Below are positions 41,098 through 52,995 of a stretch of DNA of 64,000 nucleotides, piece by piece. This DNA comes from a virus (lineage: Duplodnaviria > Caudoviricetes): IMG/VR virus record IMGVR_UViG_3300049988_000286, positions 1-64,000 of that record. One strand, given 5' to 3'. A program made the position numbers and the translations under genes. How positions within the stretch are numbered: the stretch's first letter is position 1; every line of letters starts with the position of its first letter. Below the pieces are notes generated by a model, which did not search any database, was not told where the DNA came from, and saw only the letters and a program-made list of their open reading frames with translations.

Positions 41098-41589
41098 TTA
41101 CTGTGTGAGTTCTACCAAGGGATGATCGAACAACATCTCGTAATCGCCGTCATCGCGCAAATCGTAGAACACACTGGCGTCGATCTCGATGCGGACTAGG
41201 AACCGTGAGAGCGGTGCAATCCCAGTATCGGTGAGGACAAATTCCTCCGACTCTTCGCGACGACGCTCTGGATGGGCACCGTGGTGGTGCGACATGAAGT
41301 CGATCGGCACGAGGCGAAAGCGCTGTCGCAGACGCCGCTGATCGAACACGAACACGACATCCTGTCCCCACGTTCGAGCAAAATCTCGTGAGCGCGACAT
41401 GGAGACGCCGGTGACTTGCTGTCCGCCCGTCGTCTTGTCGCCACCGTGGATCATCAGGTTACGACGGGTCTGTGACGTGCGGGCATCTAGACGATCACTC
41501 TCGATGATCCGCAAAGCACTCATCGCATTGGTGCCGTGATAGAGGTAATCGGGGCGAACGCTGGCTTCGAAGAGATCGGACAGGAGCAT
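41098..41589 (-). CDS. putative ADP-ribosyltransferase-fold late protein
   Basis: LYHGT, GVSMSRS, REESEEFV; CTAAATA-N4-ATG; MLLSDLFEAS. Confidence 0.55.
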   Translation of the reverse strand: MLLSDLFEASVRPDYLYHGTNAMSALRIIESDRLDARTSQTRRNLMIHGGDKTTGGQQVTGVSMSRSRDFARTWGQDVVFVFDQRRLRQRFRLVPIDFMSHHHGAHPERRREESEEFVLTDTGIAPLSRFLVRIEIDASVFYDLRDDGDYEMLFDHPLVELTQ

Positions 41590-41596
41590 GTCCTAT

Positions 41597-42265
41597 TTAG
41601 GACGCTTTCCGATCCACGGTGTAGAAGAGGTGGGTGGCGAACCGGACGATTGGCTTGATGCCGCGTGCCCACGAGGGGTTCACCGCTCGGGTGTGATAGA
41701 AGAGCGCTCCGCGCGTCGTGTCCTTGATGCGGCCGGTGAGCAGCCCCTTGGCGATCTTCTTGGTTTCCAGCCAGCGATCGTAGTCAAGGCTATCATGGGA
41801 GAGTTGTGCGATGTTACGCATCTGGTTGCGGCCGGGATCGCTCTCGTTCCAGCATGAGAAGGCGTAGGGCTTGAGCAACACGGCCGACAGCGTTGAGCCG
41901 AAATTGCGCGATGATGCCAGCCGGTTCAATGCGACATTTCCCACGGCAGTCATTCCCTTCCGACCCGTCGAGCGTCCCTCGCACCACATCGTAAGACGCA
42001 AGAGGCGCTCCTCCGCCGCAGTGTAGCGCGTCTTGAGCGCCACCACCTTGGCCGCGAGGGGCTTCTTGGCGCGCGGCTTTCTCGGCGTCGTCTCCGGGAT
42101 GATCTGGGTGACCGCCCGGCCCAAATACACCGGCACAGGCTTCTCGCGCGGTGCCGCCTCGGTGCGATACGCCATCACGGCGAGACCCAACATATACACG
42201 GCGACGGCGGCTTCGGATTTGCTCAACAACATACGGCCTCTCAATATATCGAACTGCTTAACCAT
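41597..42265 (-). CDS. cell wall hydrolase (SleB/Hydrolase_2)
   Basis: N-terminal TM; TMWCEGRS, AVGNVALNR, YAFSCWN, ALFYH, PSWA, HLFY. Confidence 0.88.
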   Translation of the reverse strand: MVKQFDILRGRMLLSKSEAAVAVYMLGLAVMAYRTEAAPREKPVPVYLGRAVTQIIPETTPRKPRAKKPLAAKVVALKTRYTAAEERLLRLTMWCEGRSTGRKGMTAVGNVALNRLASSRNFGSTLSAVLLKPYAFSCWNESDPGRNQMRNIAQLSHDSLDYDRWLETKKIAKGLLTGRIKDTTRGALFYHTRAVNPSWARGIKPIVRFATHLFYTVDRKAS

Positions 42266-42321
42266 AGTTCGTTCGGTATTGCAAGCTGTGGTTGATAAAG
42301 GGTTAACCGTGTAAATAGGTG

Positions 42322-42783
42322 ATGGTCTTCGACATCATCATGGGCTGGCTGATCGCCGATGCGTTGAGCGGCCTCCTCCACTACGTCCTCGATCATTTCG
42401 GGACCGCCGATACTAACGCGACAGCGAGCATCAGCGACGGTCCCCAGAAGATCAACCAGAGGAGGGCAACCATCCAAACCGCCAGCCATGTGTTGATGTG
42501 GCGAGCAAGGAAACCCCATTGTGTGAAGGCGAGCGGGCGATCGTGATGCTCACGGGCGAACCGTATCGCTCTCTTTCCCACAATCGGAGTTGGCGGCATG
42601 GTCTCCCCCTCTGTGCATTATTGGGCTCATTGCCCCCGCTACGCGCCCCGGTGGGCACGATGGCTCCAACGCTGGGGCGTCTTCCAATCGCCGCGCGGTC
42701 ACGCCCGTCACCATCGCCCTCCCTACACGGCTCATTACTGCGTGCTCACCGACTGGTTGAATCGATTATTGACCCGAAACTAA
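42322..42783 (+). pseudogene. CarF/TMEM189/FAD4-type lipid desaturase interrupted by a 173 bp internal inversion (42415-42587)
   Basis: Plus-strand ADALSGLLHYVLDHFGTADT, minus-strand PIVGK...REHH...TM segment, plus-strand HYWAH...HARHH...YCVLTDWLN. Re-inverting restores one 153 aa ORF. Confidence 0.85.
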
Positions 42784-42802
42784 CCGGGGTCTACACTCCC
42801 GC

Positions 42803-43456
42803 ATGTTTCTCAAATTCCTCGATCTTTCCCTCGCTAGCCGTGTTTTTGTGGTTGGTGATATCCACGGTGAGTTCACCATTTTGGATGACCGCCTCGCCGA
42901 TCTCAAATTTGATTATGAGCGCGATCGACTGTTGAGCGTCGGCGATCTCGTTGATCGCGGACCCGAGTCGGAACGGGCGATCGAATACGCGGTGCAGCCG
43001 TGGTTCGATCATGTTCGTGGCAACCACGAGGAATTGTGCGAAGGCGCGCTGCGCGGCGACATGTGGCAGATGCATCGCAAGAATGGCGGCATGTGGTTCG
43101 ACCTGTTGAGCGATGACGATCGCCGGGAGCATTCCCGCATCCTTAACAATGCTCCCGTGGCTATCGAGGCGCTACTTCCGAGTGGACGGCGGATTGGCGT
43201 TGTTCACGCCGATATTCCGACCAATGACTGGGACGATATGCGCAACCTCGCGCCCGAGATGGAGCGGAGTTGGACGCGCTGGTGCATGTGGAACCGTGAT
43301 CGTCTCTCGAACCCACCCCTAGATGGTATTCGGAATATCGATCACGTCTACTTCGGCCATACCCCGAAGAAGAGCGTCTATCGGGTAGGCAACACATCGT
43401 GGATCGACACGGGCGCTTTCGCTACAAAGAACTTGACGGTGCTCGAAATCAAATAA
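42803..43456 (+). CDS. metallophosphoesterase (lambda NinI/PPP-like)
   Basis: VVGDIHGE, VGDLVDRG, VRGNHE, VVHAD, FGHTP, IDTGA. Confidence 0.9.
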   Translation: MFLKFLDLSLASRVFVVGDIHGEFTILDDRLADLKFDYERDRLLSVGDLVDRGPESERAIEYAVQPWFDHVRGNHEELCEGALRGDMWQMHRKNGGMWFDLLSDDDRREHSRILNNAPVAIEALLPSGRRIGVVHADIPTNDWDDMRNLAPEMERSWTRWCMWNRDRLSNPPLDGIRNIDHVYFGHTPKKSVYRVGNTSWIDTGAFATKNLTVLEIK

Positions 43457-43898
43457 GGGGATCGAACCACAGGACGCCGGGGTCTTGCCGTCTCGGGGAG
43501 GTGATGGTGACCATGAGGGGCAGGTGGCAGCGAAGGCGTAACAGCCAAGCGCTGCTTTCCTCTGTCTGGAACGCGAAGAGCAACGCGCTGCGCTGTTCAA
43601 AACTGAATAGTGCCTCTCCGCAAAACTCGCGGATGAGTTCCGGAAAAGACGAGGCGTTCCAGATGTGTCGCCCCACCCGTTCCAAATAAGTCTCGTCCTC
43701 GGTCGCCTCATAGATGCGAAGGCTCGCCGCAATCGCCTGATCGGTCGAGATGGCTTCAAGAAAGTCGCGATCACGGGCGAGATCGATCTCTACATCTACC
43801 AGCATGGAGTATTTATAAATACGGGATGCGCATCGTTGAAATCCGCTCAAATCCTGATCTGAATCCCAAGGTGAGCGTGCTCGACATGCTTCGACCAT
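43449..43898 (-). CDS. protein with C-terminal FxxExDA-like motif
   Basis: FAFQTEESSAWLLRLR; start uncertain. Confidence 0.5.
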   Translation of the reverse strand: MVEACRARSPWDSDQDLSGFQRCASRIYKYSMLVDVEIDLARDRDFLEAISTDQAIAASLRIYEATEDETYLERVGRHIWNASSFPELIREFCGEALFSFEQRSALLFAFQTEESSAWLLRLRCHLPLMVTITSPRRQDPGVLWFDPLI

Positions 43899-44968
43899 AC
43901 CGGGATCGCGAAGATGCTTTCGTATCTTTCACAAAAATAGAGAAGCTAGGCATAAACCCAAACAGCGCATTCTCGACGCCCGTGGGCATCTACTGCTATC
44001 CCTTGAAGGAGATGTGGTCGATGTATGTCGAGGATCGCGAGCACACGATTGCCCACGATTCGGACGGTATCGGAAAGCTTGTGCCCTTCGCTGGTCAGCA
44101 GCCGTTCGTCACCCTATTCTCCTGCCCGCCGCAGGAGGGTTTGATCAACGACATCGGCGATGTCACACAAGCTGACTTCGATGCCGCCGTGGAAAAAATC
44201 GTCCCAATCTATTCCGACTGGGTGGATCGCACTATGCCGAACTATCGCCAGACGATGCAGAAGCATAGTGATGAATCGATGGACGAGATGTCGAGAAAGG
44301 CAATCACGGGAATCATCAAGGATGGTATGACCTCCTATGGCGCTAATAACAAGACACCCGGTGGACTGCTCTGGTATCTGACTTGGAAACTCTCTAACTC
44401 AATGAGTGGTATCGAGCGCGACCGAGGACTTGCGCGTAATACCGATAATCGCGTGGCGTTTATCTGGAACGCATTGATGCGTCGCATCGGGATCATTGGC
44501 ATCTGTGATCGTAATGGCAAGGGGGTGATCCACGTCGCCGAACCGATGCAAGCCGTGTTCTTCTCGCTGAAGGGACTGCGCGTCATCGCTCGCTTCAACA
44601 ACAAGCACGTGAGCGATGAGCGCAATGCTCATGCCAAAGCAAGAGGTTTGGTGAATACTCAACGTAAACGTAGTCGCGAAGCGGTGTTGTCTTTTGTCGA
44701 AAACAAGCTTTTTGGCCAGCGAATCGATCTTCCCGCAGACGCGAATGTGGTGATCGAACAAGTCCGTGCGTGGCGAGCCGCCAACGGCTTTCCTTCTCAA
44801 CCGGTTACGCGACATCATCTTGTCAGCGAAATCTGCAAACACCTTCCCGGTGTCGAAACCGATACTCTTCTTGTGATGACTGCTGTCCGAGCGATTGATA
44901 ATATCTTTCATGAGGACACAACCGATGGGCAGTTGTCTATCTGGCACGCTATTATTGAAAACGAGTAA
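43826..44968 (+). CDS. 380 aa late protein, putative virion internal protein
   Basis: ATAAATA-N4-ATG; MRIVEIRS. Confidence 0.7.
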   Translation: MRIVEIRSNPDLNPKVSVLDMLRPYRDREDAFVSFTKIEKLGINPNSAFSTPVGIYCYPLKEMWSMYVEDREHTIAHDSDGIGKLVPFAGQQPFVTLFSCPPQEGLINDIGDVTQADFDAAVEKIVPIYSDWVDRTMPNYRQTMQKHSDESMDEMSRKAITGIIKDGMTSYGANNKTPGGLLWYLTWKLSNSMSGIERDRGLARNTDNRVAFIWNALMRRIGIIGICDRNGKGVIHVAEPMQAVFFSLKGLRVIARFNNKHVSDERNAHAKARGLVNTQRKRSREAVLSFVENKLFGQRIDLPADANVVIEQVRAWRAANGFPSQPVTRHHLVSEICKHLPGVETDTLLVMTAVRAIDNIFHEDTTDGQLSIWHAIIENE

Positions 44969-44989
44969 ACCCTCCCCTATAACACCCTC

Positions 44990-45175
44990 ATGGCAAAACA
45001 ATTCTGGGTTCGTGGCGGTATCTACCGCGATACTGATTTCTCCGATCTCATCGAGGGCACCGAGGAGTGTTACGGTCCCTTCCCCAGCGAGGAGGAGGCT
45101 GCGGTTGAGTGGAGTGGGCGCGCCCGCGCCAATATCGATATCTGCTGCCACCGGTTGACTATCGAGTCCGAATAA
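44990..45175 (+). CDS. DUF4170-like protein
   Basis: WVRGGIYRDTDF...YGPFPSEEEA...W. Confidence 0.65.
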   Translation: MAKQFWVRGGIYRDTDFSDLIEGTEECYGPFPSEEEAAVEWSGRARANIDICCHRLTIESE

Positions 45176-45226
45176 AGCTTGACGAACTGCGGCCGTGATG
45201 GCAAGTCGAGGTCAGGAGACCTTGCT

Positions 45227-45733
45227 ATGATCGATCACCGCCGCATTCTGGATCGTGCAGACGCATTGGCGTTGTCGGGAGTCGATGTAGGCCCCGGCAC
45301 ACGCTGGTTCTTCGCACGTGCCGCCGTGACCATGAAGACCAACCCCAGCGAGGGGCGGCGCGAATACGAGGCGTTCCTGCGTGATCAATACGATCTGCGC
45401 GCCATCGAGGCGCTGAAGGATCGGCATCTCGTCACCACAAAGGTCGGCTATGATCTCGCCGGGGTGCTCTTCCGCGTCGCGGGTTTGTCATCGCAGAACC
45501 TCAATGATCTCTGGATGGGCGCGGAAATTTCGGCGTTTGACATCGACAGTCACGAGCAGGAACTGCTCGACCGCGAGTCGGCGCGCTACGCGAACAATTC
45601 CGCCAACACGGCCAAGGATGCGCTGCGAACCTTCCTCAAGGAGCGCAGCGTCCACTACACCAACGACGAGTTCAACACCCTCTTCGAGACGATGCGAGAC
45701 AACATCGCGCGTGGATCGCAGCCCTCGGCATGA
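45227..45733 (+). CDS. hypothetical protein
   Basis: SD AGGAG after TTGACG promoter. Confidence 0.65.
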   Translation: MIDHRRILDRADALALSGVDVGPGTRWFFARAAVTMKTNPSEGRREYEAFLRDQYDLRAIEALKDRHLVTTKVGYDLAGVLFRVAGLSSQNLNDLWMGAEISAFDIDSHEQELLDRESARYANNSANTAKDALRTFLKERSVHYTNDEFNTLFETMRDNIARGSQPSA

Positions 45734-46335
45734 CCGACATCGCTGAACGCCTCGCCGCTGATCTCCTCAAGAACCTCTCCAAGGATGACTTGCTCACCGA
45801 GTTGAACAAACGTGGTGAGGTAGTCGAGGTGGCTACTGGAGGCCCATCGAGTTGGGACTTCGCCGGAAGCGCGGCGATAGGCAGGTGCCTGTCGTGTCGC
45901 TTCTTCACGATGCGGGACTCGTACAAGTCGGGGTCGGGCAATTGCCAAATCAGAGCACCGGGGGCTACCGGCTTCCCGGCGGTGCGCGCTGGCGCTTGGT
46001 GCGGCGAATGGCAGGAGCGTCTCGCCACCCAACCCCGCTACCACGAACCTCCGATCGAGACCGTGGCGAACCATACTGTTGTGCCGTTCATCCTCGCCGC
46101 GTTCGACGGTATCGAGAAGCTGGCTAAACATCGCCTGTCACAATCCACCAATCGCCATGGTGGTGCGCGAGACACCTTGCGCGAAGACGCGGAGCGGATC
46201 ACCTCTCTGTGCAAGGCGGCGCGCCGCTGTGGCCTCTACCCGCACGCATTGGAGGAATTCACTGCCGCGCTGGACGAGCCGATGCCCTTCGAGGTAGCAG
46301 CGACGATGAAGAAGCTGGGAGCGCGTGATGAGTAA
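45730..46335 (+). CDS. hypothetical protein with CxxC...C motif
   Basis: CLSCRFF...NCQIRAP...WCGEW. Confidence 0.65.
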   Translation: MTDIAERLAADLLKNLSKDDLLTELNKRGEVVEVATGGPSSWDFAGSAAIGRCLSCRFFTMRDSYKSGSGNCQIRAPGATGFPAVRAGAWCGEWQERLATQPRYHEPPIETVANHTVVPFILAAFDGIEKLAKHRLSQSTNRHGGARDTLREDAERITSLCKAARRCGLYPHALEEFTAALDEPMPFEVAATMKKLGARDE

Positions 46336-46648
46336 GCAGTTGGAGCCACATTTCGTCAAGCTTCGTGTCGGCGACCGGTTCGTCCCCTACGCGACCTCGC
46401 GTATCGGCGACGAGTTCATCCCGGTCAAGTTCGAGCATTGGCACGCAGCTAACGATTTCGCGAACAGTCCTGATATCGTCGGCAACTATCTGGTGGAAAT
46501 CCACCCCTTCTACCCCGAATACGCTGATCTCGAACGTCGATCTCTCGACCGAGACATCGAAGCCTTGCGCGAGGATTTGCGCAAGATCGCGGAGAAGGTC
46601 GAAGAAGAGATCACCGCGCTCAACGCCAAGCGAGACCTCATCCCATGA
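46328..46648 (+). CDS. hypothetical protein
   Basis: Coupled; C-terminal coiled coil. Confidence 0.6.
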   Translation: MSKQLEPHFVKLRVGDRFVPYATSRIGDEFIPVKFEHWHAANDFANSPDIVGNYLVEIHPFYPEYADLERRSLDRDIEALREDLRKIAEKVEEEITALNAKRDLIP

Positions 46649-46804
46649 TCCGCATCACTGTCTTCATCGCGCTCCTGACAGCGCCGGGTCAACCTGCTAC
46701 TCGGGTGGAGAACCTGCCTCGCGTCCAAGATTGCATCACGGTGGTGCAAGCATGGAAGGCCCAACAGGCGGGGAACAACGGCTCTTGCGCGAAGGTGGAA
46801 CAAT

Positions 46805-47026
46805 ATGTCCGACGCTGATACTCAAGCCCGTGAGATGATCCGCGATGCCGAGCGTTACCGGGCATTGCGGCAGATGATCATCTCGATCAACAAGGTGCCG
46901 AAGAGCGAAACTCCCCTGTATGAGTTTGCGGTCTCTGACACCATCTATCCCCCGGCACAGGACTTTCTGCGCGCCGACGACATGGCGCAACTCGATGAGA
47001 TCGTGGACGCCGCGCTGGCGCGATGA
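46805..47026 (+). CDS. hypothetical protein
   Basis: RDAERYRALR motif common in phage small proteins. Confidence 0.6.
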   Translation: MSDADTQAREMIRDAERYRALRQMIISINKVPKSETPLYEFAVSDTIYPPAQDFLRADDMAQLDEIVDAALAR

Positions 47027-47298
47027 CACCGTATCCCGACCATGACTTCAACGAGCGTGAACGCTGGGAGGAAGGGGAGGCCGAGTTCTGTGACCGGATG
47101 GTAGAGTTGTGCCTCAAAACGGTCACGGAACAGAGCGAGCGATTATCGAAGGAGGCGAGTCGCGGCGGTCCCGGAGCCCTCTACCTGTCCACGATCGCGG
47201 AGCCGGTGCTCCATGCCACGATCCGGGCTCAAGTCTGGGGACAGATGGCGGACCATCTTCGCCGCTCCCGTATCGCAAGGATTGAGAACCCGCGTTGA
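47023..47298 (+). CDS. hypothetical protein
   Basis: ATGA coupling. Confidence 0.55.
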   Translation: MTPYPDHDFNERERWEEGEAEFCDRMVELCLKTVTEQSERLSKEASRGGPGALYLSTIAEPVLHATIRAQVWGQMADHLRRSRIARIENPR

Positions 47299-47489
47299 TG
47301 TTGTTGCTCGCCCGCGTGAAGAAGCGACGCACGGTAGCCGCACAGCGGTGGCGCGATGCCGTGGCGCTTTCTCGCGCAGGGGTGAGTCGTAGCGAGGCGG
47401 CAGCGAGGCTCGGGATGACCGATGATGGTCTGAAATCATTACTTCATCGCCAAACCAAATCTTCAAAGTGGCCGATCAAAAACGATTGA
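47298..47489 (+). CDS. helix-turn-helix protein
   Basis: GVSRSEAAARLGMTDDGLKSLLHR. Confidence 0.65.
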   Translation: MLLLARVKKRRTVAAQRWRDAVALSRAGVSRSEAAARLGMTDDGLKSLLHRQTKSSKWPIKND

Positions 47490-47531
47490 CCGAACTCTCC
47501 TCGTCAGTTATGCCGATGTTGGAGAAACGAT

Positions 47532-48344
47532 ATGAGCAAGATGTTCCCAACCGCGAGCGAGCGGACGACTCGTCGGGCTGCCCTGTATAAGCGCCTCGAC
47601 GCCTTTCTGGATAATCATGTCCCCAGCGATGGCGGCTACGCGCCCGCGACAGATGAGGATGTTCAGTTCATGCAAGGCGTCTTCGAGGAGATCGCCGATT
47701 TGAAGTTCGGCCGCGATCCGGATGGTGATCAGGTGCTCGGCACCGTGGCGTGGAATCGGCGACGCGGACGGATGGAAACCTTCTTCTTCCCGCACGATCC
47801 CAGCGAGCGAACGCTCGGTCGCGAGCCCACGCCGCTCGATCAGATCACGCACGAGAACCAGATGGCGCGCGCCACTGGGTTCATGGCATCGGTTCTCCAT
47901 CGTCATCTCGACCGGATCAGCATGGAGAGTGATATGCGCCGTGATGCTGCCATGAAGGTGGTCGATGGTGAAACCTTTGTGGAGGCATATCGCGTAACGC
48001 TCGCCCGTGATCCCATCGCTGCCGAGAAGATGCTCGATGACGAGATGGCGAAGCGCACTCCCCTGTTCGACAAACGCGGACCCATCCACAACATGATGCG
48101 CGAGGAATTTGGCGCGGTCATGGTCGAAGAGACTCGCGTCGCCGGGATGGCGATCGATCACGTCCTGTCAATGCTCGCCACGGCTCACGTCACGGATCGC
48201 CAGATCGAGAAGGAGGTAGCAGATACCATCATGCCCGCCTTGGCGCGCTTCGGAAAAGCAACCTTCAAGGATCAGGTAGAGCGCTGGAACTCCCTCTACA
48301 ACGAACGGCGACGCGCCCGGATGCTATTGACTACCGCGTCGTAA
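47532..48344 (+). CDS. hypothetical protein
   Basis: SD GGAG; 270 aa. Confidence 0.7.
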   Translation: MSKMFPTASERTTRRAALYKRLDAFLDNHVPSDGGYAPATDEDVQFMQGVFEEIADLKFGRDPDGDQVLGTVAWNRRRGRMETFFFPHDPSERTLGREPTPLDQITHENQMARATGFMASVLHRHLDRISMESDMRRDAAMKVVDGETFVEAYRVTLARDPIAAEKMLDDEMAKRTPLFDKRGPIHNMMREEFGAVMVEETRVAGMAIDHVLSMLATAHVTDRQIEKEVADTIMPALARFGKATFKDQVERWNSLYNERRRARMLLTTAS

Positions 48345-48380
48345 ACCATTATCGAACTCTGATTATCAAAGGAACACTGT

Positions 48381-48686
48381 ATGGCGACTGCACTCAAGGC
48401 TGTGAAACCAACCGCTATCGCGTCGGCGATCCAGACCATCACCTCGATGCGTGACACGATCGCGGAGGCGCTTCCCAACGCCGAAGTGACTGCCAGCTTG
48501 AACGAGCGCGGCAACTTCACCGTGACGCTGCGCTTCGTGCTCGTCGAGGATCGGGAACTCGCCATGATGAAGATGACCCACGGCCTCGTCGGCGATCTCT
48601 CCTTCGCCGATATCTCGGCTGTTGCTGATCAGAAGAACGCACCCGGCAAGGGGCGGCTGCTCGTCAACGCTTCGGTGCTCGGGTGA
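48381..48686 (+). CDS. hypothetical protein
   Basis: SD AAGGA. Confidence 0.65.
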   Translation: MATALKAVKPTAIASAIQTITSMRDTIAEALPNAEVTASLNERGNFTVTLRFVLVEDRELAMMKMTHGLVGDLSFADISAVADQKNAPGKGRLLVNASVLG

Positions 48687-49102
48687 GCGAACCGTTCGAG
48701 ATCATCAACGAAACCGCCTCCATGATGGAAGGTCTCCGGAACGGAGAACCGATCACCAAGGAGGCGGCAGGGGTGTTGCTGGACAAAATCGCGACGCTTC
48801 GCAGCTACACCTTCAAGGCTGTCCGTATGGACTTCTACAACGAACTCCGTGATGCCGCCGACGTGGGCTTCGTCAAGCTAGTCGAAGTCCGCGATGGCCT
48901 CAATCAACTCCATGCCGACCTCCAGCAATACCCGGAGCGGGATAGTCGCAAGATCGAGAAAGCCAGTTTCGCGGCGGTACTCGGTGACGACATTGAGTTG
49001 TCGCGTGACGACATCGCGATGCTCAAGCGGCGGTATGACGATCGTATCGAGCGTCTGGCACTCGCTCTCAATGAGGGGCTGCATAAACCGCGTTACTCCT
49101 GA
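48683..49102 (+). CDS. hypothetical protein
   Basis: GTGA coupling. Confidence 0.6.
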   Translation: MSEPFEIINETASMMEGLRNGEPITKEAAGVLLDKIATLRSYTFKAVRMDFYNELRDAADVGFVKLVEVRDGLNQLHADLQQYPERDSRKIEKASFAAVLGDDIELSRDDIAMLKRRYDDRIERLALALNEGLHKPRYS

Positions 49103-50130
49103 ACCGGCCGGAAGGCATTGTCGTGGAGGTTGGCGAACCGTTCCGGTCCGAGGGCAGCCTTAGTGGCCGTGAGTGTGTCGGGATGCATCCAGTCCCGTGA
49201 CGCCACAGCGATCTTGAGCGCGCAATCGTCGGTGGTCCATAGGCGATGGAACAACCCCTGTTCGGTGGCGGGGGTGCTGCCGACGATCAGATAAGGCGGT
49301 GTGATCATGATGCTGCTACCGGCATGGTAATGGCTTGATCGACCAGCGCTGCGTTCGATCATGTCATCGTGATCAAATGGCGCGATGACTTCCTTGCGCG
49401 TCACCGCATGGATGTAAGCCAATAGTCGGCTCTCAATCGAGAACGGGATGTGGGCGGCATTGTCGATCAGGATGTAGTCGTAATACTCGCCCACGAAGGC
49501 GGCATTGGACAACGCCTCGAAGGTCATGACCTTCACCGACGCATCGTCAATCTCCTTGGCGAGGTGAGTGACGAGGCGGTAATTGCTCGTCACCAGCAAG
49601 ACGTGTTTGCCCTGTGCGGCACGCTCGCGCGCGAACGCTATCATGAATGTCGTGAGACCAGCGCCGCGCGACGAATTGATCACCACATCGTTGCTACGCG
49701 CCGCCTCGGCGATCTTGATCCACAGCGGGCGCAGATGATCGTCTTCGGTCAGGCGGGGGCCGGTGATGCGGTAGCGCTCAACGAGGAAGTCTGACGGGTT
49801 GAAGCCATCAGAGAAAACCGGTGTCACTGCGCCTTCGAGCGCCTCTGGGACGATCGCTGCCGCCATATCGCGAAGCTGCTCCTCAAGGTGCACATGAACG
49901 CTCTCATCGGGGACGATGCCCGCAAGATTGGCGATCTCCTCCACCTCTTCGGAATGCTCTGGCAATTCAATGTCGCTGACCGGCGTGAGGGCAGTGGTGG
50001 TATTGGCGCGCGTTGCGACAGAATCACCGAGGAGGTAAGCCTCGACGATCGCGGCCTTGGCCATCATATCTTCGAAATTATAGGCAAAACCGCGCGCAGC
50101 CTCGATGGCTTGTAGGCGTGTATCAATCAT
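49093..50130 (-). CDS. degenerate terminase-ATPase-like protein
   Basis: VVINSSRGAGLTT (Walker A-like), YILIDNAAHI (Walker B-like, E to N), IVGSTPATEQGLFHRLW; no nuclease domain. Confidence 0.6.
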   Translation of the reverse strand: MIDTRLQAIEAARGFAYNFEDMMAKAAIVEAYLLGDSVATRANTTTALTPVSDIELPEHSEEVEEIANLAGIVPDESVHVHLEEQLRDMAAAIVPEALEGAVTPVFSDGFNPSDFLVERYRITGPRLTEDDHLRPLWIKIAEAARSNDVVINSSRGAGLTTFMIAFARERAAQGKHVLLVTSNYRLVTHLAKEIDDASVKVMTFEALSNAAFVGEYYDYILIDNAAHIPFSIESRLLAYIHAVTRKEVIAPFDHDDMIERSAGRSSHYHAGSSIMITPPYLIVGSTPATEQGLFHRLWTTDDCALKIAVASRDWMHPDTLTATKAALGPERFANLHDNAFRPVQE

Positions 50131-50203
50131 GTTATTCTCCAATTCATTTCTGTATGGTAGTGAGATCGTTTCCGTCTCCCTTTATTTAGTTAAGTGAGCA
50201 TTT

Positions 50204-50794
50204 ATGTTGAATTTAGAGCACATGATGGAGCGATATGGAATAAAACTATTGGTGCTCTATCGTCGTTGCCATAATGGATATAATCGTGACCAGAACAGAA
50301 TAGCGATCTTCGAGTTTAGCGACTGGCGAGACATAGAGCGGCTCATCATGTGCGCCGACTACCCCTTCAAGCGGGGAGGGACTATCCTGAAGAGGATGAT
50401 TGGTGACGTTGATCGTGTCGGTCTCTTCCATACCAGCACGATTGATTACCTTTATGAGCGCTCGGCAAGTGTTGCCCCCGTCGAGTTCACGGTGTCATAT
50501 ACCTTGGTCAACCGCAGCTATATCGCGCGTGAGTATGACAACGTGATGATGTTGTTGGAGGGAGCATCGAAGGGTCAACAGAGCGGACGGCTCGCGCTGA
50601 TCACCAATAAGGATATGGCTGATGAACTCGATTGGCTCGGCGATTGGACTATCTGGATAAGCCCATCCTTCACCGCTGTAATCAAACTTTGGCCCTATCG
50701 TCGCATCGACGATCACGAACTCACGCTCTTTCGACTGCGCTGGGGACATTTGCTCCTTGCCCCGATGGAGAGTTCGAGTTACGCTGCGGTATGA
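50204..50794 (+). CDS. protein with C-terminal FxxExDA-like motif
   Basis: IDDHELTLFRLRWG. Confidence 0.6.
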   Translation: MLNLEHMMERYGIKLLVLYRRCHNGYNRDQNRIAIFEFSDWRDIERLIMCADYPFKRGGTILKRMIGDVDRVGLFHTSTIDYLYERSASVAPVEFTVSYTLVNRSYIAREYDNVMMLLEGASKGQQSGRLALITNKDMADELDWLGDWTIWISPSFTAVIKLWPYRRIDDHELTLFRLRWGHLLLAPMESSSYAAV

Positions 50795-51420
50795 ACCAAT
50801 TTCAAAAGCGCAAAGTCATCCTCCAGACTCTCCTTCAAGGGGAGGGCTACTATGATGCCTTGGCGGTGATGCACTACTGTGAACCTCACCACGCGGGAAC
50901 GCGCAAAGACGGGTTCACGCCCGAGTACTCCCACCAGATCAACATCGCGACCTTCGCCCTCGATCTTCCCGATCTCATGTATCGGCAGGACGTGATCGCA
51001 ACGATCTTCGGCCACGACACCAGCGAGGATGCTGGCCGGAAGTGGACGAAGATCGCCCGGCGGGTTCGTCGCTCCAAGAAGGCGCGCAAGCGTGTCGCTC
51101 GGGCGATCAAGAACATGACCAAGGAGTGGAAGGGTCAGCGCATCCCAGACGCTGATCTCTTCGCCAAGATGGCCCGCGATCCCGTCGCGTCGATCGCCAA
51201 GGGCTGCGACCGCATCCATAACCTGTCTTCGATGGTTGGTGTGTTCACGCCCGCGAAGCAGCGCGAATACATCCGGGAAGTCAGGGAGTTGTTCCTGCCG
51301 ATGCTCAAGCTGGCGCGGCGGCGCTTCCCCCATCAGGCGCGCGCCTACGAGATGATCAAGTTCGTCCTCATCTCGCAGATCACCCTGATCGAATCCGCCC
51401 TCAATGGAGCAGAGGCATGA
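50791..51420 (+). CDS. HD-domain (p)ppGpp hydrolase-like protein (RelA/SpoT HD, Mesh1-like)
   Basis: HAGTRKDGFTPEYSH, FGHDTSED, AKGCDRIHNL. Confidence 0.8.
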   Translation: MNQFQKRKVILQTLLQGEGYYDALAVMHYCEPHHAGTRKDGFTPEYSHQINIATFALDLPDLMYRQDVIATIFGHDTSEDAGRKWTKIARRVRRSKKARKRVARAIKNMTKEWKGQRIPDADLFAKMARDPVASIAKGCDRIHNLSSMVGVFTPAKQREYIREVRELFLPMLKLARRRFPHQARAYEMIKFVLISQITLIESALNGAEA

Positions 51421-51623
51421 ACGACCTTTTGGACAACAAAGAGCCCACGGTGTCGGCTCACGATCTCGCGCGCGAGCATACGCGGCGATGGCGCGACGCT
51501 GGGGAGATGATCGCCGCCGTGGCCTTCTCCGCTATGGCGCTGGGCGGTCTTCATTATCATGTCGAGTATGCGGGATGGCTGATCTTCTTGTCGGTCATCA
51601 TCGTGTGGCGACGAGTCGCATGA
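51417..51623 (+). CDS. small membrane protein
   Basis: Two TM segments. Confidence 0.55.
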   Translation: MNDLLDNKEPTVSAHDLAREHTRRWRDAGEMIAAVAFSAMALGGLHYHVEYAGWLIFLSVIIVWRRVA

Positions 51624-52087
51624 AGGCGCTCCTGACCGAAATCATCTGGTTCGAAGGCCCCGCCCTGATCGCGTGCGATCATCGCTGCGACAAGGCGTGG
51701 GGGATGAATGGTCGCCTCGCGACAATCGGTAGCTATGCTCCTGCACAGATTCAGCTATCCGACGATGATGACGACCACGTTAACCTTGCCGATGCGGAGG
51801 TGGGCATAGCCCCGGAGGACACAGGCTGGTCCGAAGGACCGGACGGCAAGCCGTGGTTCCCGGAACGACACAATCGCTGGTGTGCCCGAGAGTGCGAACG
51901 CTCCTCGATCATCGATCCCGGTGATGCAGTGAAGATAACCGATTATCGGCAGAGGGTGTTCAACATACCGCATCTCCACGATGCCGAGAATGCCGTGATC
52001 GATTTCGGGTTCTCATTCCAGCCGAGCGGTCAAAAACACGCATCATTCATCGAGATAGATGTTGACACCTCGGAGACCATCAAGTAA
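51620..52087 (+). CDS. hypothetical Cys-containing protein
   Basis: CDHRCDKAWGMN...NRWCARECERS. Confidence 0.65.
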   Translation: MKALLTEIIWFEGPALIACDHRCDKAWGMNGRLATIGSYAPAQIQLSDDDDDHVNLADAEVGIAPEDTGWSEGPDGKPWFPERHNRWCARECERSSIIDPGDAVKITDYRQRVFNIPHLHDAENAVIDFGFSFQPSGQKHASFIEIDVDTSETIK

Positions 52088-52926: not shown

Positions 52927-52995
52927 CGGAACGAACTCTCCTTGCCGTAAGTTAGATGGTCTGCTACCGGGGTAGAAATTTTGCGGGATTCGCGA

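What the first reader, a model, noticed from the sequence alone, without database searches (positions are those of the whole stretch)
42311..42783. Lipid desaturase gene switched off by a clean 173 bp intragenic inversion
Seen: reverse-complementing 42415-42587 joins ...HFGTADT to PIVGKRAIRFAREHHDRP...MLAVAL and on to VGGMVSPSVHYWAH...HARHH...*. The result is one uninterrupted 153 aa ORF with all His boxes and no base gained or lost. Breakpoints share ACT/AGT within an imperfect inverted repeat (CCGCCGATACT at 42404-42414; AGTTGGCGG at 42588-42596). Known: this His pattern defines the TMEM189/CarF/FAD4 family, and Myxococcus CarF makes plasmalogens used in blue-light singlet-oxygen signalling. 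Inference: a reversible intragenic ON/OFF inverton or a very recent inactivation. An assembly chimera is also possible. A phage membrane desaturase next to a LOV sensor suggests a light-stress theme.
Basis: partly seen in the sequence, partly recalled or inferred. Interest (0 to 1): 0.8.

Follow-up and report, generated by a model that had tools for sequence, protein, structure and literature searches.

The report
Phage desaturase gene broken by inversion
A 500-kb leaf-surface phage carries a rare membrane lipid-desaturase gene whose middle 173-179 bases are flipped; a 97%-identical phage from another study has them the right way round, so the flip is real, but it looks more like a recent knock-out mutation than a built-in switch.

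Summary
Reverse-complementing 42415-42587 turns three fragments into one 153-codon ORF (ATG 42322 to stop 42783). This ORF matches Pfam PF10520 (Lipid_desat) end to end, has all eight family histidines, and shows no gain or loss at either joint.

The inverted form is not an assembler error. Logan's separate assembly of the probable source run gives the same sequence at depth 47, and the flanking inverted repeat (11 nt or less) is too short to mislead a k=31 graph.

A roughly 97%-identical relative in a different study has a contig that joins 42413 to 42587 on opposite strands. That is the intact orientation, at the same length. All four listed differences inside the segment are synonymous third-position changes in the restored frame.

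Three results argue against a programmed switch:
- The inverted repeat is no better than chance (p about 0.06; 3-nt microhomology p about 0.02).
- The microhomology is not conserved in the relative.
- The 500-kb genome has no resolvase, tyrosine recombinase, IS110-type or large serine recombinase.

Only contigs were available, so mixed orientations within the sample could not be tested.

Best reading (about 0.6): a recent, one-off, microhomology-mediated inversion that inactivates an accessory gene. A reversible inverton stands at about 0.25 and an artefact at under 0.05. The CarF/plasmalogen and LOV links are not supported.

The parts
42311..42317 (+). GTAAATA, a variant of the phage's gene-start motif (xTAAATA), 4 nt before ATG 42322
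   Evidence: Across the genome, 58% of xTAAATA sites have the start of an ORF of at least 100 aa within 40 nt downstream, against 5.7% of random sites. The modal spacing is 4 nt.
42322..42414 (+). N-terminal piece of the desaturase gene (residues 1-31, first His and Asp: H20xxxD24)
   Evidence: Matches PF10520 profile 1-23 and local HMM positions 3-32. The relative has GTA at 42319-42321, so ATG 42322 is the likely start.
42415..42587 (-). Inverted middle segment (residues 32-88 plus 2 nt), coding on the minus strand. It holds the HH box (H45, H46) and the hydrophobic hairpin.
   Evidence: The minus-strand translation matches PF10520 profile 23-71 and local HMM positions 33-94. The relative's contig carries it in the opposite orientation to the left flank.
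42588..42783 (+). C-terminal piece (HxxxH and HxxHH boxes: H99, H103, H127, H130, H131) and the stop codon
   Evidence: Matches PF10520 profile 94-152 at 59.6 bits and is 62% identical to P0001.
42404..42414 (+). Left arm of the imperfect inverted repeat (CCGCCGATACT). The last 3 nt, ACT, are the breakpoint microhomology.
   Evidence: A flank repeat this good occurs at 5.9% of random site pairs, and microhomology of 3 nt or more at about 1.8%.
42588..42596 (+). Right arm of the imperfect inverted repeat (AGTTGGCGG). The first 3 nt, AGT, are the breakpoint microhomology.
   Evidence: The relative reads AAT here, so the microhomology is not conserved.
41597..42265 (-). Divergently transcribed neighbour: a cell-wall hydrolase (SleB/CwlJ type)
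   Evidence: PF07486, E = 1.1e-17.
42803..43456 (+). Downstream neighbour: a NinI-like metallophosphatase
   Evidence: PF00149, E = 1.5e-12. A Bordetella phage homologue is annotated as a Ser/Thr phosphatase.

Best explanation
The phage once carried an intact 153-aa PF10520 membrane lipid desaturase, an accessory gene with its own gene-start motif. In the lineage that dominates this leaf sample, one illegitimate event flipped the middle 173-179 bp in place. The likeliest mechanisms are a replication template switch, or breakage and rejoining, at a 3-nt inverted microhomology (ACT/AGT) within a weak imperfect inverted repeat. The flip separates the first histidine (H20) from the HH box (H45, H46) and from the last five histidines. 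It also places a TGA in the forward frame at 42544-42546, so no functional desaturase can be made. The event is young: no further damage has accumulated, and divergence from the intact relative is synonymous. Shown: the inversion, its cleanness, the intact form in a relative, and the absence of a phage recombinase. Inferred: the mechanism, that the event happened once, and the loss of function.
For: The intact orientation exists in a relative about 97% identical, from another study: contig joint 42413|42587 on opposite strands, same length. The inverted form is the consensus at depth 47 in an independent assembly of the probable source run, and no contig of the other form appears. The flank inverted repeat is at chance level (5.9% of random pairs), and 3-nt microhomology occurs in about 1.8% of random pairs. 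Genome-wide, pairs of the repeat motif number 4 against 5.1 expected. In the relative the right arm reads AAT rather than AGT and the base at 42414 also differs, so the microhomology is not a conserved site. No Resolvase, Phage_integrase, DEDD_Tnp_IS110 or Recombinase domain was found in the 499,572-bp record, which CheckV rates 100% complete. All 4 listed differences inside the segment are synonymous third-position changes in the restored frame. [quoted passage not shown]
Against: Only contigs could be laid, not raw reads, so a minority of intact molecules in the sample cannot be excluded (one search states that contigs drop rare variants). A clean inversion with every codon intact is also what a switch looks like. 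Some known invertible elements use repeats of only 9-11 nt; the thiC intragenic inverton has 11 positions (10.1101/2023.03.11.532203). A host-encoded invertase cannot be excluded. There is only one comparator contig, at depth 5.7.
Confidence: 0.62

Rival explanations
1. A reversible intragenic ON/OFF inverton. A host-encoded site-specific recombinase, or an unrecognised phage one, flips the segment between the short inverted repeats. The phage population would then hold desaturase-ON and desaturase-OFF genomes, and this sample happens to be mostly OFF.
For: The inversion is exact to the base and flanked by an inverted repeat, with ACT/AGT at the cuts. Both orientations exist in nature among near-identical phages. 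The segment shows no decay and only synonymous divergence. Premature-stop intragenic invertons with repeats of about 11 nt are documented in bacteria (10.1101/2023.03.11.532203).
Against: The repeat is imperfect (9 matches with two gaps) and not above chance. The microhomology is not conserved in the relative. No resolvase/invertase, tyrosine recombinase, IS110/Piv-type or large serine recombinase was found in 500 kb. The repeat motif pairs up no more often than expected elsewhere in the genome. No contig of the ON form appears in the source run. The two orientations are seen in different strains and studies, not within one population.
Confidence: 0.25
2. An assembly or library artefact: the phage DNA is intact and the inversion arose in silico or during library preparation.
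For: The record is a metagenome assembly, and both assemblies compared probably derive from the same reads, so they are not independent at the library level.
Against: Logan's k=31 contig of 25.5 kb reproduces all 2,301 laid bases with 0 differences at word depth 47.3. A de Bruijn graph can invert a segment only between inverted repeats about as long as k, and here the repeat is 11 nt or less. Random library chimeras do not become a 47-fold consensus at both joints.
Confidence: 0.03
3. The inverted state is itself functional. The pieces would be expressed as separate small membrane proteins or a hybrid: a 75-aa forward ORF at 42319-42546, a 68-aa minus-strand ORF at 42393-42599, and a 61-aa ORF at 42598-42783. 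Each opens on a start codon: GTG for the 75-aa ORF and ATG for the other two.
For: All three ORFs exist with start codons.
Against: The two ATGs come from a single CATG palindrome at 42597-42600, which encodes an internal Met of the intact protein. All eight histidines are needed for activity in this family (PMC7149458), and they are split across three pieces. TGA is an ordinary stop in this genome. No protein identical to the 61-aa piece is on record in the assemblies searched.
Confidence: 0.03

Closest known systems
PF10520 lipid desaturases (TMEM189/PEDS1, Myxococcus CarF, plant FAD4)
   Same: The Pfam match is over the cut-off. The eight conserved histidines have the same spacings as mouse 96/121/122/187/191/215/218/219 (PMC7149458). 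In the phage they are H20, H45, H46, H99, H103, H127, H130 and H131, with gaps of 25, 1, 53, 4, 24, 3 and 1. The conserved Asp four residues after the first His (mouse D100) is D24.
   Different: The phage protein is 153 aa, against about 270-280 aa. The hydrophobic stretch between the HH box and the HxxxH box is 12 residues shorter. The ninth histidine, needed for full plasmalogen-desaturase activity (mouse H131, CarF H113), is absent. In that respect it resembles the plant and alphaproteobacterial homologues, which did not replace CarF (PMC9131029). The substrate is therefore unknown. The gene is broken here.
Short phage and bacterial PF10520 proteins: P0001 (164 aa, beside a terminase on a Logan contig), Erythrobacter phage vB_EliS-L02 (OL955261.1), uncultured 595-kb phage LR756511.1
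   Same: P0001 is 62% identical over the C-terminal piece, has the same length class, and aligns collinearly without indels. It has a phage context. There are tblastn matches in 3 of 50,697 phage records.
   Different: Those genes are intact. None is functionally annotated: the entries read hypothetical protein or have no annotation, and there is no PHROG family.
Premature-stop intragenic invertons of bacteria (Chanin et al., 10.1101/2023.03.11.532203; for example B. thetaiotaomicron thiC, 11-position inverted repeat)
   Same: A short segment wholly inside a gene is inverted between short inverted repeats. This truncates the product without loss of DNA.
   Different: In those cases both orientations coexist in one culture and invertases are present. 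Here only one orientation is seen per sample, the repeat is at chance level, no recombinase is encoded, and the carrier is a phage.
[quoted passage not shown]
   Same: An in-place inversion of the spacer between short imperfect inverted repeats, with no gain or loss of bases and microhomology at the switch points.
   Different: The events described there are mostly much shorter and often make the repeat arms identical. Here the arms remain different and the spacer is 173 bp. The mechanism is inferred, not shown.
Phage invertible segments (Mu Gin/G, P1 Cin/C; from my own knowledge)
   Same: DNA inversion in a phage genome that alters a gene product.
   Different: Those elements are kilobase-sized, swap tail-fibre C-termini, have about 26-34-bp sites and an adjacent serine invertase gene. 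None of these features is present here.

Membership tests
PF10520 Lipid_desat (TMEM189/CarF/FAD4 superfamily) | Match to the Pfam model above the gathering score (26.4 bits) | tested here: met
   The C-terminal piece scores 59.6 bits and the middle piece on the minus strand 26.4 bits. The six-frame match over the locus scores 70.6 bits.
PF10520 Lipid_desat (TMEM189/CarF/FAD4 superfamily) | Eight conserved histidines in the family's spacing (PMC7149458) | tested here: met
   In the restored reading, H20, H45, H46, H99, H103, H127, H130 and H131 have gaps of 25, 1, 53, 4, 24, 3 and 1. The mouse gaps are 25, 1, 65, 4, 24, 3 and 1. The last five are invariant in 52 homologues.
PF10520 Lipid_desat (TMEM189/CarF/FAD4 superfamily) | One uninterrupted coding sequence in the DNA as it stands | tested here: not met
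   The forward frame hits TGA at 42544-42546, and the middle third is coded on the other strand. TGA is a normal stop in this genome.
PF10520 Lipid_desat (TMEM189/CarF/FAD4 superfamily) | Four-helix membrane topology with cytoplasmic histidines | not tested
   The restored protein could not be handed to the folding tool because it is not a letter-for-letter product of the window. Hydrophobic stretches are visible, but no topology prediction was run.
PEDS1/CarF functional subgroup (plasmalogen vinyl-ether desaturase) | Ninth histidine about 9 residues after the HH box (mouse H131, CarF H113). It is essential in CarF and absent from the non-complementing plant and alphaproteobacterial homologues. 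| tested here: not met
   There is no His between residues 47 and 60 of the restored protein, and position +9 is Trp. This was judged by spacing, not by an alignment to CarF itself. The numbering comes from PMC9131029 and PMC7149458.
PEDS1/CarF functional subgroup (plasmalogen vinyl-ether desaturase) | Enzymatic formation of the vinyl-ether bond, or complementation of a carF mutant | not testable with these tools
   This needs expression and lipid analysis.
Intragenic inverton (programmed, reversible) | Both orientations coexist within one clonal population or sample | not testable with these tools
   All runs were held as contigs. The source run shows only the inverted form and the relative only the intact form. 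Contigs drop minor variants.
Intragenic inverton (programmed, reversible) | Flanking inverted repeats that serve as recombinase sites, better than chance and conserved | tested here: not met
   9 matches with two 1-nt gaps, and 5.9% of random site pairs do as well. The ACT/AGT microhomology is not conserved in the relative. The motif is not paired elsewhere above expectation.
Intragenic inverton (programmed, reversible) | A cognate invertase or recombinase | tested here: not met
   PF00239, PF00589, PF01548 and PF07508 are all absent from the 499,572-bp record at E <= 0.01. A host enzyme is not testable, because the host is unknown.
One-off inversion at short inverted repeats (template switch or illegitimate recombination) | In-place inversion with no base gained or lost, and microhomology at both joints | tested here: met
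   The length is unchanged (465 nt), the HMM coordinates are contiguous at both joints, and there is a 3-nt inverted microhomology.

The most novel reading that the evidence does not exclude
The segment is a genuine reversible intragenic inverton in a lytic megaphage that has no recombinase of its own. A host invertase, or an unrecognised phage enzyme, would flip it and so toggle a membrane lipid desaturase ON and OFF across the phage population. This would be the first intragenic phase switch of an auxiliary metabolic gene in a phage.
Probability: 0.2. Interest if true: 0.7.

Novelty: new member of a known kind. Interest (0 to 1): 0.35.

Why it matters
If the favoured reading holds, this is a cleanly documented natural knock-out. 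Two near-identical megaphages would differ by an exact in-place inversion of an accessory gene. That would show the desaturase is dispensable in at least one leaf population, and it would illustrate microhomology-mediated inversion as a route to gene loss in huge phages. The side result may be more useful. Short PF10520 desaturases are rare in phages (3 of 50,697 records), have no PHROG family, and have never been characterised. They suggest that some large phages remodel host membrane lipids with an enzyme class otherwise known from plasmalogen and plastid lipid synthesis. If the switch reading were true, it would extend intragenic phase variation from bacteria to phage metabolic genes.

Tried and rejected
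- **Sequence relatives to compare orientation:** I searched IMG/VR with the C-terminal piece, the hydrolase and the phosphatase. I also searched JGI metagenome contigs, ran exact-protein look-ups, searched the 5.8-billion-protein set with the hydrolase (next best 52% identity), and searched GenBank phages by DNA. None gave a close relative, so the only comparator is one 643-nt contig in run X9.
- **Word-index protein search:** a search with the 61-aa piece found nothing.
- **TGA recoding:** I rejected this as an explanation of the single TGA in the forward frame. TGA is the commonest terminator of long frames, and reading it as Trp opens implausibly many frames.
- **Split-gene function:** rejected (see the rival explanations).
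- **Pfam scan and fold of the restored protein:** not done, because the restored protein has no reference and may not be typed. A local HMM served instead.
- **Second sequencing-run search:** not used. No further laying of reads was possible, and no run other than X1 holds this strain.

Full report
**Where the locus lies.** The window is the first 64 kb of a 499,572-bp IMG/VR virus record, which CheckV rates complete. The best holder among public runs is a leaf metagenome. The locus sits between a divergently transcribed SleB/CwlJ-type cell-wall hydrolase (41597-42265, minus strand) and a NinI-like metallophosphatase (42803-43456).

**Check of the observation.**
- Reverse-complementing 42415-42587 and leaving everything else untouched gives one open frame of 465 nt ending at the stop at 42781-42783.
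- The open frame alone is weak evidence, because hundreds of in-frame breakpoint choices also stay open. Homology settles the matter.
- Pfam PF10520 (Lipid_desat) matches the three pieces in collinear order. The forward piece 42319-42414 covers profile positions 1-23. The minus-strand translation of 42396-42599 covers 23-71. The forward piece 42598-42780 covers 94-152 at 59.6 bits.
- A six-frame search of the whole genome finds only this one locus, again as a forward match plus a minus-strand match.
- An exhaustive phmmer search with the C-terminal piece gave 653 relatives. The best are proteins of 164 and 170 aa in which this piece occupies residues 97-154.
- Aligned with 13 of these relatives, the restored protein shows no insertion or deletion at either joint.
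- A local HMM of 52 homologues places the pieces at HMM positions 3-32, 33-94 and 96-153. It scores the restored protein at 186.2 bits end to end, against 133.0 bits for the sequence as it stands.
- The inversion is therefore real in the sequence, exact to the base, and far beyond chance.

**Start codon.** The start is probably ATG 42322, which gives 153 aa.
- The relative has GTA instead of GTG at 42319-42321.
- ATG 42322 lies 4 nt after GTAAATA. That is the modal spacing of the phage's xTAAATA gene-start motif.

**Is the inversion an artefact?**
- Logan's independent k=31 assembly of run X1 yields a 25.5-kb contig that covers all 2,301 laid bases with no difference, at word depth 47.3.
- A de Bruijn assembler can mis-orient a segment only between inverted repeats about as long as k. 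Here the repeat is at most 11 nt.
- X1 is probably the source of the record, so this excludes an assembler error but is not an independent sample.

**The intact form exists in a close relative.**
- Run X9, from a different study, holds a phage about 97% identical.
- Its 643-nt contig lies on the minus strand over 41954-42413 and on the plus strand over 42417-42587. The tool reports this as a joint 42413|42587 on opposite strands.
- Read the other way round, this is left flank, then the reverse complement of the middle segment, then 11 letters (CTAATTGGCGG). Those letters match the right flank of the restored window (TTAGTTGGCGG) apart from one synonymous and one Val/Ile change.
- The relative therefore has the gene intact, with the same length and the same joints.
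- All four listed differences between the two phages inside the segment fall on third codon positions and are synonymous in the restored frame. The segment has thus evolved as coding sequence for essentially all of the divergence between the two phages.

**Switch or mutation?** Four results argue against a programmed inverton.
1. The inverted repeat is not above chance. It reads CCGCCGATACT at 42404-42414 against the reverse complement CCGCCAACT at 42588-42596. That is 9 matches with two single-base gaps, and 5.9% of random site pairs 173 bp apart in this genome do as well. Inverted microhomology of 3 nt or more at the cuts occurs in about 1.8% of random pairs.
2. The repeat is not a conserved site. 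The relative reads AAT rather than AGT on the right, and its base at 42414 also differs. Elsewhere in the genome the motif pairs up no more often than expected, 4 pairs against 5.1.
3. The 500-kb genome encodes no recognisable invertase. It has no Resolvase, Phage_integrase, IS110/Piv-type DEDD or large-serine Recombinase domain, although the same searches hit the named control genomes.
4. The two orientations are seen in two different strains, not within one population.

There are two caveats. Only contigs were available, and contigs drop minor variants, so coexistence within the leaf sample was not tested. Bacterial intragenic invertons can also have repeats of only about 11 positions (10.1101/2023.03.11.532203).

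**How I weigh the readings.**
- A recent one-off inversion: about 0.6. [quoted passage not shown]
- A reversible switch: about 0.25.
- An artefact: about 0.03.
- A functional split state: about 0.03.

**What the gene is.**
- The restored protein carries the eight histidines that define pfam10520. In mouse TMEM189 these are 96, 121, 122, 187, 191, 215, 218 and 219, each essential (PMC7149458). In the phage they are H20, H45, H46, H99, H103, H127, H130 and H131.
- The spacings are identical except for a hydrophobic stretch that is 12 residues shorter. The conserved Asp (mouse D100) is D24.
- The inversion separates H20 from the HH box and from the last five histidines, so the present allele cannot assemble the di-iron site.
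- The ninth histidine is missing: there is no His between residues 47 and 60. That histidine distinguishes the plasmalogen-making enzymes (CarF H113, mouse H131) from the plant FAD4 and alphaproteobacterial homologues, which fail to replace CarF (PMC9131029).
- The CarF, plasmalogen and singlet-oxygen story is therefore not supported. The enzyme is best described as a short PF10520 lipid desaturase of unknown substrate.
- The proposed light theme is also loose. A LOV-type PAS-HisKA-HATPase-REC protein does exist at 52981-54570, but it lies 10 kb and about ten ORFs away.

**How common the gene is in phages.**
- The closest homologue, P0001, lies directly downstream of a terminase-containing gene block on a 15-kb contig.
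- By tblastn, only 3 of 50,697 GenBank virus records carry a homologue. These are Erythrobacter phage vB_EliS-L02, a 595-kb uncultured phage, and a Mollivirus. The two phage entries are unannotated or labelled hypothetical; the Mollivirus match is labelled only as a Kua motif.
- No PHROG family matches, and no paper in the library mentions PF10520 together with phage.

**Verdict.** Its cautious alternative, a very recent inactivation, is the best-supported reading, and the switch remains possible but unshown. The finding is a tidy natural knock-out of a rare phage accessory gene. It is of moderate interest unless read-level data reveal both orientations in one population.

Noticed in passing
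Whole genome; example at window 42311-42317: The heptamer xTAAATA, mostly CTAAATA (97 copies against 27 expected), precedes gene starts. 58% of sites have the start of an ORF of at least 100 aa within 40 nt downstream, against 5.7% of random positions. The spacing to the start codon is most often 4 nt. It looks like a phage-specific promoter or translation-start signal placed almost on top of the start codon.
   Followed up: partly
window 52981-54570 (+): A phage-encoded hybrid histidine kinase with a PAS_9 (LOV-type) domain, HisKA, HATPase_c and a receiver domain. It lies 10 kb from the desaturase, not adjacent. I did not check the photoactive cysteine.
   Followed up: partly
window 43826-52087: A run of ORFs of 150-380 aa with no Pfam match at E <= 0.001. 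The eight scanned, with coordinates as submitted (stop codon left off), are 43826-44965, 45179-45730, 45730-46332, 46365-46835, 47532-48341, 49096-50142(-), 50204-50791 and 51404-52084. The 163-aa ORF at 41098-41589(-), upstream of this stretch, likewise had no match. These are typical megaphage dark matter.
   Followed up: no
GenBank OL955261.1 2346-2807; LR756511.1 54630-55052: Intact short PF10520 desaturase homologues in Erythrobacter phage vB_EliS-L02 (annotated as hypothetical protein) and in a 595-kb uncultured phage (no annotation). These suggest a small, uncharacterised group of phage-borne lipid desaturases.
   Followed up: no
Runs X2 (wastewater) and X3/X7 (phyllosphere), laid on window 41500-43800: Short contigs 95-99% identical to parts of this stretch occur in wastewater and phyllosphere metagenomes from other studies, so relatives of this megaphage are geographically widespread. 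None of these contigs crosses the inversion joints.
   Followed up: partly
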